Part shown: positions 9,001 to 17,570 of the stretch, in pieces
How the letters are laid out: every line of letters starts with the position of its first letter
Position numbering within the stretch: the stretch's first letter is position 1
Assembly (NCBI RefSeq): GCF_039654945.1
Contig: NW_027361869.1
Coordinates: forward strand, 1,302,001-1,366,000
Length of the DNA stretch: 64,000 bases
From: Dendrobates tinctorius
Lineage: Eukaryota
Direction: 5' to 3'
Position numbers: made by a program

Positions 9001-12000
9001 AGTGTATATAACGTAACAGTATGTGCATAGCAGCCCTATTTATGCATATATGGGACAAGTTTTTTCCTAGGTAATGTAATATTGTGTATACGTACAGTAT
9101 AGCAGTGGTATTTACAGTTGGTATATGGCATAGCAGCATTATTTACTCATAGGGCAACATTATTTCTGAGGAATGTACTATTGTATATATAGCATAGCAG
9201 TAGTATTTACAGTATTTATATGGCAGAACCGCATTATTTATGCATACATGGGGTAACAGCATTTTTTAAATAATGTAATAGTGCATATATAGCGTAGCAG
9301 TGGTATTTACAATATGTGTATAGCATAGCAGCACTATTTATGTGCATAAAATGGCGGTACTATAGGTGCACAGAACAGGAGAGATAGGATTCTGTACAAA
9401 AATGAGGTGAGTACAGCATTTAAAAATGTTGTGTAAGGTGTATGAAAACTAGATTTGGCCACAAATTTCCCCCTCTGACCCTGTTGTTAAAGGATATGAA
9501 TCTTACTGCTGCCACACCTTTCATAAAGGGGACAGAGGCCCTATGCAACAATGGACAACTACTCTAGACCACCAGGACTATTACAGGGACACATCTTCTA
9601 TAAAAGTGTTACGTTGGAAAGGCGGTGTAATTTTGGGAGTAAATGCATTTAACCCCTCTTTGCCCGTGTCTTCCTTTTTGGGATTGTTATGGAACCATTT
9701 GGGAACACGCAGAAGGCAGCGTGAAGTCTCTCGGTGAAGGTGGCAGAGAAGCTAAACAAGTGTCTGAACTGATCGTTGAGCTGATAAAAAGATATTAGTC
9801 CGGATTCATAGTTCACATACACCCCGAGCAGCTTGACGGGAGACTTCACAGTCACTTCTTGCCTCACGTTATTGTGGAGAGCAGAAAGGCTTTGGCGGCA
9901 CTCCAGACTCCACGACTTGTTGTTATACCCTATGTAGGCGTCACTGGTCAGCGCTTTCCGGCCCATGCTATGGTAAGCCACTCCGATAATCCATTCCTCG
10001 GCTTTACTGACATCCACTTTCCAATAATTCTGCGTTGAAAAGTTACAGGTGCTCAGGAGCTGGCAGACGGTAAAGCGCTCCGGCCCCTCTGGATGCCCCT
10101 GGTGGGCGCCGATATTGGAGGCGGATCTGCAGTCGGGCGATACCTGTATGTCCTTACAGGCAGTTTTAACATCCAGGATTACGTCCAAAGTCTTTGGCTC
10201 GGGCATTGTTTTAATTAATTCAGAGAACATATGAACCACGCCGGACAAGCCCCTCTTAAATGTCAAACTGATGGGCGCTTCATCCCAAAAGATTGCAACG
10301 CTATCACTTTGCAATTTCCTGTCCTCTACTTCAGGCTCCAGCTGTGACGTCACTAGAGCACCGCCCCCGAGGAGCCGCTCCTGCGTCTCATGTACCTTCC
10401 TGGACAGCTCCTGCTTCCTTAGCTCCAGCTCCTCCATGAATTTGGAGACCTGCGCCAGCGCGTGCTCCTTCTTCCTAGAGATTTCCCCCAAAACAATCTT
10501 CCGGGATCTCCTGATATCTTTTTCGATCATGGTAAAAAATGTGTTTAAGACTATTTCTAGAGCCTGGGAGCTTTCCTGAATTTTACTTTTCTGTTCGTTG
10601 AGGCTATGAAGCCTTTTCTCGGTGTCTTCTTGTTCCCTGTTAAGCTCCAAGAGAGAATGTTGCAGTTTGTCGTGAGAAGCTTTCTGTAGGTGCTGCACTA
10701 TGTTTCGCAGCTTCAGGTTTCGCTGCAGGGCAGGACGTTGGAGGAACACTGCATTGCACTCGGGACACTTAAAGGCTGTAGATCCATGGGGAGAATCCAG
10801 GGCAAGGTTAATGCACTCCTGGCAGAAGTTGTGCCCACAGCTCAGCATCATGGGGTCATCATAGAGGTCCAGACAGATGGGGCAGACCAGCTCGGCGCTG
10901 AGCGACTCCATTGTGGCAAAAATCAATCAAAAGCCCGATAACAGCATACGAGGGGCAGCTGGCAGTGCAGGATCCAGCGCAGATTTCCGTGTTGCACTCA
11001 CTCCATAGGCACCAACTATTATACCCCGGACACGAGTCACAAAGAACTCATATTTCCAGTTCTACCAGATAAAAATGAAAGCAAAATATGCAGATGTGAC
11101 CACACAGCAGGAAATGCAGTCGTGTCTCATAAATATGAGGTTTACGGCTTTTACTTCCGTTAGTGTGCTACATTATGCAGCCAAAAATCTCTCCCGACAG
11201 GTCTGCTTCAATAAGTGATTTTAGCAGCAATGAATACAAGCAGCGTCGGACTGGAACACCTTGGGCCCACCAGAGAAAATCATTCTTGGGGCCCACTATG
11301 TAGCTGCATAGAGTTAAATACCAGACCACCAATTGTGCGGTAAAACACACTAATATCCGGGTATAATATAAGGTTGTACATGTCTTAATTATGTAGCAGG
11401 AGTTGGGGTAGCCCCCTCATAGACTATAAAGCAGCCCCCTCATAGACTATAATGCAGCCATCTCATAGAATATAATACTGCCCCCCTCATAGAATATAAT
11501 ACTGCCCCCCTCATAGGGTATAATACTGCCCCCCTCATAGGGTATAATGATAGTGTATAATGCACCCCCTCATAGGGTATAATGATAGGGTATAATGATA
11601 GGGTATAATGCACCCCCTCATAGGGAATAATGCAACCCCTCATAGGGTATAATGATAGGGTATAATGATAGGGTATAATGCACCCCCTCATAGGGAATAA
11701 TGCACCCCCTCATAGGGAATAATGCACCCCCTCATAGGGTATAATGATAGGGTATAATGATAGGGTATAATGATAGGGTATAATGATAGGGTATAATGCA
11801 CCCCCTCATAGGGAATAATGCACCCCCTCATAGGGTATAATACTGCCCCCCTCATAGGGTATAATACTGCCCCCCTCATAGGGAATAAGGCACCCCCTCA
11901 TAGGGTATACTGCCCCCCTCATAGGGTATACTGCCCCCCTCATAGGGTATACTGCCCCCCTCATAGGGTATAATGCTATAAAGATATATAGTGTTAGATA

Positions 12001-15000: not shown

Positions 15001-17570
15001 GAGATAATAGATAGATATAGAGACAGATAGATATAGAAAGATAGATATAGAGATATATATATAGAGATAATAGCTAGATATAGAGATATGTATAGAGATA
15101 GATAGATATAGTTAGATAGATATAGAGAGATAGAGATAGATAGAGATAGCTAGATAGATAAATGGATAGATAGATAGAGATAATAGAGATAATAGATAGA
15201 GATAATAGATAGATGGATAGATCAATAGATAGATAAAGAGAGAGATAGAGATAGATAGATAATGAGCTATAGAGATAGATATAGAGATAGATATAGAGAT
15301 AGATGGATAGATCAATAGATAGATAAAGAGAGAGATAGAGATAGATAATGAGCTATAGAGATAGATATAGAGATATGGTGTTAGATAGAAAGATAGATAT
15401 AGAGATAGATATAGAGATAGATATGGATATAGAGATAATATATAGATAGCTATAGAGAGAGAGATATAGAGATAGATATAGAGAGAAACAGATATAGAGA
15501 TAGATAGGTAGATAGATATAGAGATAATAGATAGATATAGAGATAGATAGATATAGATATAGATATAAAGATAGATAGAGATAGAGAGCGGTAGATATAG
15601 AGAGAGATATAGAGAGAGAGATAGATACAGAGNNNNNNNNNNNNNNNNNNNNNNNNNNNNNNNNNNNNNNNNNNNNNNNNNNNNNNNNNNNNNNNNNNNN
15701 NNNNNNNNNNNNNNNNNNNNNNNNNNNNNNNNNNNNNNNNNNNNNNNNNNNNNNNNNNNNNNNNNNNNNNNNNNNNNNNNNNNNNNNNNNNNNNNNNNNT
15801 ATAATAATAATAATATAGACATATATAGATAGATATAGAGATAAATATATAGATAGATGGCTATAAATAAAAATAGATATAGAGATATAGAGATAATAGA
15901 TAGATATAGAGACAGATAGAGATAGAAAGATAGATATAGAGATATATATAGAGATAATAGCTAGATATAGAGATATGTATAGAGATAGATATAGAGAGAT
16001 AGAGATAGATAGAGATAGCTAGATAGATAAATGGATAGATAGAGATAATAGATATAATAGATAGATGGATAGATCAATAGATAGATAAAGAGAGAGATAG
16101 AGATAGATAGATAATGAGCTATAGAGATAGATATAGAGATATGGTGTTAGATAGAAAGATAGATATAGAGATAGATAGATACAGAGAAAAGATATAGAGA
16201 TAGATAGATACAGAGAAAAGATATAGAGATAGATAACGGATAGATAAATAGATAGATAGGTATAGAGATAGATAACGGATAGATAAATAGATAGGTATAG
16301 AGATAGATAGATATAGATAGAGATATATATATAGATAAAGATTGATAGATATAGATGGTAGCTAGATAGATAATAAATATAGAGATAATAGATATAGAGA
16401 TAGAGTAAGATAGATAGATATAGAGATGGATAGATAGATATAGAGATGGATAGATAGATAGAAAGATAGATATAAAGATAGAGCGATAGATAGATATAGA
16501 AATAGATAGATATAGATAATAGATAGAGATAGAAAGATAGATATAAGAGAGATAGAGAGAGATATATATATATATAGAGATAGATAGAGAGAGAGACAGC
16601 TAGAGAGAGCGAGAGAGATATAAAAAAACAAACCACAATACTCACCTCTCCTCGCTCCCACGCTGATCCCGGCTTCAGTGTCAGGAGCTGCCCCCTCTGC
16701 CAGACACACAGCGGGTGCGCGATGTAGTGACGTCATCGCGCACTGGCTGTGAGCCAGGAGCAGAGAGGACTGAGGGCAGCGCCTTACAGCTGTAGTCTGC
16801 AGAGCGGCTTACTGGGCTGGGGGCGGGGCCTCTGGGGGTGGAGACTGTGAAATGAGATTCACTGCTTCGCGGTGAATATTCATTTCTCTTTAGCAGCGGG
16901 GACAGGGGCTCCTGCGTCCTGACACCCGCTGCTGCTCCGCTGGCAGGGGCCCCCATAGCAGCTGCATGGTGTGCGACACACCACTGACTGGGGGCCCCTG
17001 GAGCAGCGGGGGCCCTAGGCAACTGCTGGCCCTGTATGCCTGCAGGTGCCAGGGCCCACCGGAGAATCCACCGGTTCCCCGGTGGGCCAGTCCGAAGCTG
17101 AATACAAGAAGTCTAGAGCAGTTTTTCTTTATAAGAGCATGTTCACACTTTTGCAACAAGATTTTGTGCAGATTTGCTGCAGATTAGCAACTTCCAGCAC
17201 AACCCCTTTAAGTGCATGTGACTGCTAGAGCCCCTGATTAGCGGAATGTGGCGAAACCAGCATGGAAGTCCTGCTAGGAGTGTAGAAATCCATAGAGAAG
17301 GAGTATATTATTCTATATTTTCTACTTTTTTTTTTTTTTTTTTTTTTTTATTATTAATTCTCTACATCTGCAGCAGATCTGTAACAAAAGTGAATTTTTC
17401 TGCAAATGCAAAATACTTATGTCTATAGGAAAGATGGCAAATTGAAAACGACATGCACAAAAAAAAAAAAAAAAAAAAAAAAAAAACACCCCACCAGCAA
17501 AACTGACATTGATTGAAAAATCTGCAAAAACAGATCAAATTTGAGCCTTAAAACTAAAGCAGCACATAGA

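What the first reader, a model, noticed from the sequence alone, without database searches (positions are those of the whole stretch)
11233..17108. A hAT element acting as a satellite container 330 bp upstream of the TRIM start
Seen: 14-bp TIRs and a perfect 8-bp TSD (AATACAAG) bracket ~5.9 kb, about 90% of which is tandem repeat (a minisatellite, then a GATA array). What looks like an independent microsatellite desert is the interior of one transposon. Inference: the arrays expanded inside a small MITE, or are spread by it, and the insertion separates the TRIM promoter from upstream sequence.
[Added by the scan's program, not by the reader: the finding's places include an assembly gap (unread letters, written N; its length is only estimated) at 12704 to 12860, 13925 to 14146, 14741 to 14952, 15633 to 15799. 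Whether the letters on both sides are continuous or in frame is not known: test that first.]
Basis: partly seen in the sequence, partly recalled or inferred. Interest (0 to 1): 0.65.

Follow-up and report, generated by a model that had tools for sequence, protein, structure and literature searches.

The report
Repeat-filled transposon upstream of frog TRIM
A single cut-and-paste transposon copy in a frog genome, whose inside is almost entirely tandem repeats, sits 330 bases upstream of a conserved immune-type gene; repeat-carrying transposons like this are already known in frogs, so it is a clean but fairly ordinary example.

Summary
AATACAAG occurs at 11233-11240 and 17101-17108, and directly inside it lie inverted ends CAGCGTCGGACTGG / CAGCTTCGGACTGG (13 of 14; 17 of 20 extended). 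It is the only non-palindromic structure of this kind in the window, and 0 of 60 shuffles produced one. The body (11241-17100) is 5,860 bp as assembled. Of that, 758 bp are N, in four gaps. It has five parts:
- a 171-bp left arm
- a 21-24-bp minisatellite
- a degenerate, one-stranded GATA-type array with a higher-order repeat
- a 475-bp GC-rich right arm
- GGGCCC-type subterminal repeats on both arms

All four gaps lie inside the array, at the same phase of the higher-order repeat, so the array's length and copy number are unknown.

The 8-bp duplication, the CAG ends, the dissimilar arms and the subterminal repeats fit a non-autonomous hAT-type element. No transposase, second copy or empty site could be examined, because no eukaryotic DNA collection was available.

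The neighbouring gene (9649-10911, minus strand) is an intact RING/coiled-coil/PRY-SPRY gene. It is 85-88% identical to poison-frog orthologues, and its ATG lies 330 bp from the element.

Repeat-carrying DNA transposons are already described in frogs (Xstir/Xmix, miDNA4, FEDoR). Verdict: a real insertion and a new member of a known kind. Any effect on the gene is untested.

The parts
11233..11240 (.). Left target-site duplication, AATACAAG
   Evidence: Read directly. Identical to 17101-17108.
11241..11260 (+). Left terminal inverted repeat: CAGCGTCGGACTGG, extended to 20 nt
   Evidence: 13/14 and 17/20 complementary to the right end (I2).
11241..11411 (+). Left non-repetitive arm, 171 bp, GC 0.45, with GGGCCCAC at 11263 and 11289
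   Evidence: No other copy in the window.
11412..11976 (+). Minisatellite. Units are 21-24 bp (CTCATAGGGTATAATGCACCCC type) with an embedded 13-bp sub-repeat, and there are runs of identical neighbouring units.
   Evidence: TRF rows; unit list. No relative elsewhere in the window.
11977..16625 (+). Degenerate GATA/GAGA array with a higher-order repeat. It has 3,891 known letters plus 758 N in gaps at 12704-12860, 13925-14146, 14741-14952 and 15633-15799. C is 1.8%. There are 324 WGATAR motifs on + and 0 on -.
16626..17100 (+). Right non-repetitive arm, 475 bp, GC 0.64, with GGGCCC at 16947, 16992, 17010 and 17052 and GTGGGCC at 17082. No coding signal.
   Evidence: The open frame 16681-17112(-) has no Pfam hit and no homologue.
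16689..16770 (-). 82-nt near-perfect hairpin inside the right arm, centred on a TGACGTCA-containing loop region
   Evidence: -54.6 kcal/mol, z -7.8, 0 of 200 shuffles as stable. Arms 16700-16724 / 16734-16758 (I1). The only Rfam match is mir-1271 at 26 bits against a gathering score of 80.5, so it is not a member.
17081..17100 (-). Right terminal inverted repeat (reverse complement CAGCTTCGGACTGG...), preceded by a 10-bp-stem hairpin at 17053-17088
17101..17108 (.). Right target-site duplication, AATACAAG
9649..10911 (-). Neighbouring intact single-exon gene for a 420-aa RING / coiled-coil / PRY-SPRY protein (TRIM-like, no B-box hit). ATG at 10911.
   Evidence: Pfam. 88% and 85% identical to named proteins of Ranitomeya imitator and Phyllobates terribilis. 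Collinear from Met1 with 6 frog relatives.
10912..11232 (-). The 321 bp between the ATG and the target site. It holds a TATA-like GGGTATAATAG (about 11026-11016, minus strand) and a 6-codon upstream ORF (10947-10927).
   Evidence: Read. The motif position is confirmed by the minus-strand GGGTATAAT hit at 11018. Function is not tested.

Best explanation
This is one insertion of a non-autonomous cut-and-paste (class II) DNA transposon, most likely of the hAT superfamily, in a dendrobatid-like frog genome.

Shown: the two ends are inverted copies of each other, sit directly inside a perfect 8-bp duplication of the target, and carry the same short GGGCCC(A)C motif several times in their subterminal regions. 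The element has no coding capacity. About 87-89% of its body is two adjoining tandem arrays lying between a 171-bp left arm and a 475-bp right arm.

Inferred:
- A transposase supplied in trans by an autonomous relative bound the TIRs and subterminal repeats, excised the element and integrated it across an 8-bp staggered cut. This is how Hermes-type hAT elements work.
- The arrays are cargo that sits where the transposase gene of the parent would have been.
- The arrays change length by replication slippage and unequal exchange. The runs of identical neighbouring minisatellite units and the 379-903-bp higher-order repeat are the traces of that.

I think some of the expansion happened at this locus. 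A repeat-bearing progenitor, as in the frog elements FEDoR, miDNA4 and Xstir/Xmix, is about equally likely as the source of the arrays.

The insertion moves whatever lay upstream of the TRIM-like gene at least 5 kb further away and puts a one-stranded block of GATA motifs there. Whether that matters to the gene is unknown.
For: The TSD is perfect, the TIR is 13/14, and this is the only such non-palindromic structure in 64 kb, with 0 of 60 shuffles giving one.

Subterminal repeats: 6 of the window's 11 GGGCCC, 4 of 5 GGGGCCC and 3 of 3 GGGCCCAC lie in the 646 bp of the arms, which is 1% of the window.

Features shared with Hermes/hAT as described in PMC10368747 (passages read): an 8-bp TSD, imperfect short TIRs, dissimilar left and right ends, and short subterminal repeats concentrated near the tips.

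No coding capacity: the only long open frame in the arms has no Pfam hit and no homologue among 5.8 billion clusters.

Array anatomy:
- neighbouring minisatellite units are identical (three 21-mers, five 13-mers)
- a 24-nt marker occurs 6 times
- the five segments are 79-92% alike and share one strand polarity

hAT elements are abundant in dendrobatid genomes: 3.91% of the Dendrobates tinctorius assembly with 265,361 annotated pieces (PMC11152451, passages), and 255 Mb in Oophaga pumilio (PMC6278860, passages).

Precedent for repeat-carrying DNA transposons in frogs: PMC12054243 (section 21 and passages) and PMC9659126 (passages).
Against: - Only one copy is visible. Neither arm, the TIR, the minisatellite nor the flanks recur in the window, so mobility as a family is unproven.
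- No transposase or autonomous partner was seen, so the superfamily rests on end features alone.
- The TSD AATACAAG has the A at position 7 of nTnnnnAn but not the T at position 2 (for the consensus).
- The right TIR begins CAGCT rather than CAGNG.
- Beyond the 20-nt TIR the two arms show only a 15-nt direct match. Local alignment scores were reached by 2 of 300 (direct) and 4 of 300 (inverted) shuffles.
- Four assembly gaps sit between the two ends, so physical continuity and the true size rest on the scaffold plus the matching TSD.
Confidence: 0.78

Rival explanations
1. The arrays were not grown here. They are a constitutive part of a dispersed, kilobase-sized non-autonomous element family, like FEDoR, which carries fixed internal tandem-repeat blocks and spreads them by transposition.
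For: FEDoR of Rana temporaria is about 3.5 kb. It has four internal TR blocks, including a 22-bp monomer repeated about 41 and 8 times, TSDs at both ends, inverted-repeat pairs, no ORF and a roughly 150-bp hAT-like stretch (PMC12054243, section 21). The element here likewise has a 21-24-bp minisatellite followed by a second array, plus hairpins in its right arm. The higher-order copies are 8-21% diverged, which is old enough to predate an insertion whose TSD is still perfect.
Against: The FEDoR 47A probe is absent from the window even with 3 mismatches allowed, and the minisatellite unit differs. There is no second copy to show that the arrays are shared. Runs of identical adjacent units indicate recent local slippage. 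FEDoR's consensus is in supplementary files that were closed, so arms could not be compared.
Confidence: 0.4
2. The element is a class II transposon of another superfamily that also makes 8-bp duplications (for example P, Mutator-like or Merlin-like; this list is recalled, not tested), rather than hAT.
For: TSD length and a short TIR are not unique to hAT. The TSD fits the hAT target preference at only 1 of 2 fixed positions. No transposase was seen.
Against: The CAG terminus, the short imperfect TIR, the asymmetric arms and the short subterminal repeats are the hAT pattern. hAT is the second most abundant DNA-transposon group in a dendrobatid genome. A second element in the window, at 38048-39043, has a canonical hAT-type TSD (CTGTGGAG) and TAGGGTG ends, which shows that such elements insert in this region.
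Confidence: 0.12
3. The element is nested. A small MITE of about 650 bp was later hit by a separate array-bearing element, or by a retroposon with a microsatellite tail. The arrays then belong to the second element.
For: The array ends in an A-rich stretch (ATATAAAAAAACAAACC, 16617-16633 region). The two arrays are unrelated to the arms in composition.
Against: No direct repeat of 5 nt or more is shared by the two array borders in the 56- and 76-nt stretches examined. No TIR or recognisable TE sequence lies at the array borders, and no other copy of either array is in the window.
Confidence: 0.08
4. The TIR/TSD pair is a coincidence or an assembly artefact around a free-standing microsatellite tract.
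For: Four gaps lie between the ends. Repeats of this kind are where assemblies fail.
Against: 0 of 60 shuffles gave any 8-bp repeat with 13/14 inverted ends. My own arithmetic for the 600-bp flanks of the array expects about 1e-6. The ends also share the GGGCCC(A)C motif, which is otherwise rare in the window. A scaffolding error would not create an inverted repeat next to an 8-bp direct repeat.
Confidence: 0.02

Closest known systems
[quoted passage not shown]
   Same: Frog host. A kilobase-sized non-autonomous DNA element with no ORF, TSDs at both ends, inverted-repeat sequences, and an interior made of several different tandem-repeat blocks including a roughly 22-bp monomer. A hAT-like stretch is reported.
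   Different: The 47A probe sequence is absent here, and the repeat units differ. FEDoR has paired 91- and 49-bp inverted repeats on each side, whereas this element has a 14-20-nt TIR. Here the second array is a GATA-type tract of several kb. FEDoR's consensus (in supplements) could not be seen.
miDNA4-Xt, a Tc1/mariner MITE of Xenopus tropicalis carrying a satellite motif (Scalvenzi & Pollet 2014; known to me only through PMC12054243 and PMC9659126)
   Same: A frog MITE whose internal tandem-repeat motif can be amplified, proposed as a route from transposon to satellite.
   Different: It is Tc1/mariner, 300-600 bp, and most copies have one repeat motif. This element has an 8-bp TSD with CAG ends, two arrays, and about 5.9 kb as assembled.
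Xstir tandem repeats on the Xmix MITE, Xenopus laevis (Hikosaka & Kawahara 2004; seen only as cited in PMC9659126)
   Same: 'Tandem repeats riding on a MITE' in a frog.
   Different: There the repeat derives from the TIR region of the MITE. Here the arrays are internal and unrelated to the TIR.
Hermes and other hAT transposons; PMC10368747
   Same: 8-bp TSD, imperfect short TIRs, dissimilar left and right ends, and short subterminal repeats clustered near the tips that the BED domain binds.
   Different: No transposase gene. The subterminal motif is GGGCCC(A)C rather than AAGT/AAGC. The TSD fits nTnnnnAn at one of two fixed positions.
Lepidopteran MITE-like elements with hitchhiking (GTCY)n microsatellites (Coates et al. 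2011; seen only as cited in PMC9659126)
   Same: A tetranucleotide microsatellite carried inside a MITE-like element.
   Different: Insect host, a short microsatellite near one inverted repeat, and no kilobase higher-order array.
Tandem hAT-MITE accumulations at Atlantic cod inversion breakpoints; PMC12368964 (abstract only)
   Same: hAT-derived MITEs associated with tandem structure in a vertebrate.
   Different: There whole MITEs are arranged in tandem. Here a single element contains the arrays.

Membership tests
hAT superfamily (non-autonomous member) | 8-bp target-site duplication | tested here: met
   AATACAAG on both sides, 8 of 8. Criterion from PMC10368747.
hAT superfamily (non-autonomous member) | Short, often imperfect TIRs beginning (C/T)A(A/G)NG (this consensus is recalled, not from a call) | tested here: inconclusive
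   14-nt TIR, 13/14. The left end CAGCG fits. The right end CAGCT misses the fifth position.
hAT superfamily (non-autonomous member) | Target preference nTnnnnAn (Ac/Hermes type) | tested here: inconclusive
   AATACAAG has A at position 7 but A, not T, at position 2. One insertion cannot define a preference.
hAT superfamily (non-autonomous member) | Short subterminal repeats in dissimilar left and right ends | tested here: met
   GGGCCC 6 of 11, GGGGCCC 4 of 5 and GGGCCCAC 3 of 3 window copies lie in the two arms. The arms are otherwise unrelated.
hAT superfamily (non-autonomous member) | Mobilised by a transposase with BED finger, RNase-H-like DDE core and hAT dimerisation domain, encoded by an autonomous relative with the same ends | not testable with these tools
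   There is no other TIR copy in the window.
MITE | Small size (about 100-800 bp) and no coding capacity | tested here: not met
   The body is 5,860 bp as assembled. Only the non-array part (646 bp) is MITE-sized. There is no coding signal. Size criterion as given in PMC12054243.
MITE | High copy number of uniform copies | not testable with these tools
   One copy in 64 kb. The genome is not searchable here.
FEDoR | Internal shTR47 arrays containing the 47A probe sequence | tested here: not met
   0 matches with up to 3 mismatches.
FEDoR | Paired inverted-repeat sequences (91 and 49 bp) on both sides of the arrays, and conserved flanks | not tested
   The consensus is in supplementary files, which are closed. 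Here there is only a 14-20-nt TIR plus hairpins in the right arm.
miDNA4 / Tc1-mariner MITEs | TA target-site duplication (recalled) and Tc1/mariner-type TIRs | tested here: not met
   The TSD is 8 bp.
mir-1271 precursor (Rfam RF04085) | Score at or above the gathering threshold | tested here: not met
   26 bits against 80.5.
TRIM (tripartite motif) protein, for the neighbouring gene | RING + B-box + coiled coil | tested here: not met
   RING, TRIM coiled-coil, PRY and SPRY are found, but no B-box family at E <= 0.01. The precomputed domain lists of the 8 closest relatives also lack PF00643, whereas most of the 510-aa-plus relatives have it. It is TRIM-like.

The most novel reading that the evidence does not exclude
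The element is a live vehicle that moves a kilobase-scale, strictly one-stranded GATA-motif array around a poison-frog genome. The array holds 324 WGATAR sites on one strand in 3.9 kb of read sequence. At this locus it acts as an enhancer-blocking or GATA-factor-binding module 330 bp upstream of a conserved, B-box-less TRIM-like immune gene. Presence/absence or array length at this site would then change the gene's expression between individuals or species.
Probability: 0.06. Interest if true: 0.6.

Novelty: new member of a known kind. Interest (0 to 1): 0.27.

Why it matters
It is a clean single-locus example that a multi-kilobase 'microsatellite desert' in a giant frog genome can be the cargo of one DNA transposon. 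This bears on how tandem repeats are seeded and dispersed in amphibian genomes and on why such assemblies break: all four gaps fall inside the array.

It matters for annotation, because the arrays, the arms and the TSD should be annotated as one element. It also gives a testable site, a possible empty site with a single AATACAAG next to a gene conserved across hyloid frogs.

It does not change what is known. TE-borne tandem repeats are documented in Xenopus and Rana and in many other taxa.

Tried and rejected
1. Other copies in the window. BLAST of both arms (word 7), of the minisatellite and of both flanks, plus a TIR pattern search, found nothing beyond self-hits and short chance matches. 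There was therefore no paralogous empty site and no test of co-occurrence.

2. Reaching other copies through predicted proteins. The 143-codon open frame of the right arm gave 0 hits at E <= 0.001 among 311 word-sharing candidates, with only lengths 78-251 searched. It had no Pfam family. For non-coding DNA this is uninformative.

3. RNA genes. Rfam at E <= 1 over 10900-17400 gave only a sub-threshold mir-1271 match. There is no tRNA in the window.

4. FEDoR identity. The 47A probe is absent.

5. TIR in print. The two 14-mers and their reverse complements occur in 0 papers. The 11-mers occur in 9 unrelated papers (primer or probe strings, judged from titles only).

6. Extended similarity of the two arms. 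There is none beyond the TIR and one 15-nt direct match.

7. Direct repeats at the array borders, as a sign of nesting. None of 5 nt or more.

8. Whether the window's 86-bp satellite (30591-31764 and 57326-58930) is also TE-borne. The two arrays are 91-93% alike, but homology stops at the array edges.

The phage, plasmid and E. coli collections are irrelevant.

The tRNA-synthetase-like and ubiquitin-like exons were scanned one by one.

11. The gaps were not filled or inferred.

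
Full report
**What is in the sequence**

The octamer AATACAAG stands at 11233-11240 and again at 17101-17108. Immediately inside it, the left end reads CAGCGTCGGACTGG. The reverse complement of the right end reads CAGCTTCGGACTGG. That is 13 of 14, and 17 of 20 when extended (pair I2).

I scanned the whole window for any 8-bp direct repeat with at least 13/14 inverted ends just inside it, at most 10 kb apart. 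It gave 7 hits. Six are palindromic octamers inside long inverted duplications, and the seventh is this one. None of 60 block shuffles gave a hit. The TIR pattern with up to two mismatches has three matches in the window against 0.31 expected: the two ends, and a two-mismatch site at 62087 that has none of the element's other features.

**The gaps, tested first**

Four N runs of 157, 222, 212 and 167 (758 in all) lie at 12704-12860, 13925-14146, 14741-14952 and 15633-15799. All are inside the GATA-type array.
- Each gap is preceded and followed by the same stretches of a higher-order repeat, so the assembly broke at the same phase each time.
- The five read segments are 79-92% identical in their best pairings. 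They are distinct copies, not one sequence written several times.
- All five have the same polarity: C is 1.7-2.0%, and WGATAR counts are 52-95 on the plus strand and 0 on the minus strand in each.

The order and number of the segments, and hence the element's true length, cannot be verified. The 5,860 bp between the duplications is an estimate. The two ends being parts of one insertion rests on the scaffold and on the matching TSD. Two different copies of a family would not share a TSD. I did not try to infer the hidden letters.

**Anatomy**

- *Left arm, 11241-11411* (171 bp, GC 0.45).
- *Minisatellite, 11412-11976.* Units are 21-24 bp of the type CTCATAGGGTATAATGCACCCC, with an embedded 13-bp sub-repeat. 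There are runs of identical neighbouring units, for example three 21-mers and five 13-mers.
- *Array, 11977 to about 16608-16625.* It matches a 4-nt unit at only 62-67%. 51% of its read letters lie in exact GATA tetramers and 28% in GAGA/AGAG. C makes up 1.8%. It has 324 WGATAR motifs on one strand and none on the other, or 83 per kb against 2.1 per kb in the rest of the window. A 24-nt marker occurs six times, exactly, at spacings of 379 to 903, and TRF reports a 389-bp period.
- *Right arm, 16626-17100* (475 bp, GC 0.64, CpG observed/expected 0.5). It contains an 82-nt near-perfect hairpin at 16689-16770 (-54.6 kcal/mol, z -7.8) and a smaller hairpin at 17053-17088 next to the TIR.

Tandem repeats make up 88.7% of the body with the N counted, and 87.0% of the read letters.

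**Signs that the two arms belong to one transposon beyond the TIR**

Of the window's 11 GGGCCC hexamers, 6 lie in the arms. So do 4 of 5 GGGGCCC and 3 of 3 GGGCCCAC, at 11263, 11289 and 17052, with the complement at 17082. The arms are 1% of the window. Otherwise the arms are dissimilar. The best local alignments are the TIR itself and one 15-nt direct match, and their scores were reached by 4 and 2 of 300 shuffles.

The arms have no coding capacity. The open frame 16681-17112(-) has no Pfam family and no homologue. Rfam gives only a sub-threshold mir-1271 match, at 26 bits against 80.5, which I read as just the hairpin. There are no tRNA genes.

**What it is**

An 8-bp TSD, short imperfect TIRs, dissimilar left and right ends, and short subterminal repeats near the tips are the features given for Hermes, a hAT element, in PMC10368747 (passages read). 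The CAG terminus is typical of hAT ends as I recall them; that is not from a call.

Against a firm assignment:
- The TSD fits nTnnnnAn at position 7 only.
- The right end starts CAGCT.
- No transposase could be examined.
- Other superfamilies also make 8-bp duplications (recalled).

I therefore call it a non-autonomous class II element, probably hAT. 'MITE' fits only the 646 bp that is not array.

**Host and neighbour**

The ORF 9649-10926 on the minus strand encodes a 420-aa protein from the ATG at 10911. Pfam finds RING, TRIM coiled-coil, PRY and SPRY matches and no B-box.

Its best named relatives are from poison frogs: Ranitomeya imitator at 88% and Phyllobates terribilis at 85%. Next come other hyloid frogs at 58-61%. 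All of these are 410-427 aa and also lack a B-box entry in their precomputed domains. Seven of these proteins align from Met1 to the end without breaks. The gene is intact and conserved, and the window is from a frog, not a human.

The element's first base is 330 bp from the A of the ATG. The 321 bp in between hold a TATA-like GGGTATAATAG about 106-112 nt upstream of the ATG and a 6-codon upstream ORF. These are motif readings only. The transcription start is unknown, and an upstream non-coding exon is not excluded.

**How it most likely works**

Shown: the end structure, the duplication and the array anatomy.

Inferred: mobilisation in trans by a hAT transposase that recognises the TIRs and the GGGCCC(A)C repeats and integrates across an 8-bp stagger, and growth and turnover of the arrays by slippage and unequal exchange.

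The identical neighbouring minisatellite units point to recent local slippage. The 8-21% divergence between higher-order copies points to an older origin. The TSD is too short to date the insertion. So 'expanded here' and 'carried in' cannot be separated without other copies.

GATA repeats have been reported to block enhancer-promoter communication (Kumar et al. 2013, which I saw only as cited in PMC5622345). That makes an effect on the TRIM-like gene conceivable, but nothing here tests it.

**Comparison with what is known**

Repeat-carrying DNA transposons are established, including in frogs:
- Xstir on the Xmix MITE and miDNA4 in Xenopus (review PMC9659126, passages).
- FEDoR in Rana temporaria, a ~3.5-kb non-autonomous element with TSDs, inverted repeats and four internal repeat blocks including a 22-bp monomer (PMC12054243, section 21).

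The present element is not FEDoR by the one sequence I could test: the 47A probe has 0 matches. FEDoR's consensus is in supplements that are closed. It is not a Tc1/mariner MITE either, because the TSD is 8 bp.

hAT elements are common in dendrobatids. The TIR 14-mers occur in no paper of the library.

It is therefore a new member of a known kind. The particular points of interest are the size and strict strandedness of the GATA-type array and its position next to a conserved gene.

**What stayed unchecked**

I could not search this genome or other frog genomes for further copies, an autonomous partner or an empty site. 

Noticed in passing
window 38048-39043: A second element bounded by an 8-bp duplication: TSD CTGTGGAG (fits nTnnnnAn at both fixed positions), 980-bp body, ends TAGGGTGACCG matching 11 of 11. 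The interior is a foldback with 357-nt arms that are 98% complementary. It has no Pfam hit. It lies just upstream of, or within, a Harbinger-type element.
   Followed up: partly
window 30591-31764 and 57326-58930: Two arrays of the same 86-bp satellite (13.7 and 18.9 copies), 91-93% alike to each other. Homology stops at the array edges, so no shared carrier element is visible.
   Followed up: partly
window 44256-45617: A very homogeneous 20-bp purine-rich minisatellite (GGGGGGAGAGAAGAATGGAA, 68.6 copies, 97% matches), open in all six frames. It lies next to tRNA-synthetase-like exons.
   Followed up: no
window 24-3462: Two reverse-transcriptase-bearing ORFs (157-1926 minus; 1935-3336 plus) form a long, near-perfect inverted duplication. 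Only a Pfam RVT_1 hit was obtained, and the element type was not determined.
   Followed up: no
window 9649-10911 (-): The 'TRIM' has RING, coiled coil and PRY/SPRY but no B-box. The same holds for its 8 closest frog relatives (410-427 aa), while most more distant relatives of 510 aa or more carry PF00643. This looks like a conserved B-box-less lineage in hyloid frogs.
   Followed up: partly
window 45856-46398 (-), 48556-48939 (-), 53300-53911 (+): Exons matching class I glutamyl/glutaminyl-tRNA synthetase (tRNA-synt_1c), and a ubiquitin-family exon. From memory this resembles the EARS2-UBFD1 neighbourhood of other vertebrates. Exons were scanned singly and not joined.
   Followed up: no
window 25532-26209 (+), 62652-63110 (+), 63623-64000 (-), 39285-39686 (+): Tc1/Sleeping-Beauty-type transposase pieces and a Harbinger-type DDE_Tnp_4 ORF. 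The window is rich in class II elements. Only 25532-26209 and 39285-39686 were scanned with Pfam; the other two are judged from their translations.
   Followed up: no
window 19848-20367, 8138-9342: Further tandem repeats: a 57/117-bp unit (9.1 copies) and 99-118-bp units (2.3-2.8 copies), the latter just downstream of the TRIM-like gene.
   Followed up: no
window 11018-11026 (-), 11359 (+), minisatellite, and the 86-bp satellite: The 9-mer GGGTATAAT occurs in four places: the TATA-like site upstream of the TRIM-like ATG, the element's left arm, 16 times in the minisatellite, and 9 times in or beside the 86-bp satellite arrays. This is probably a coincidence of AT-rich motifs. Significance was not tested.
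   Followed up: no
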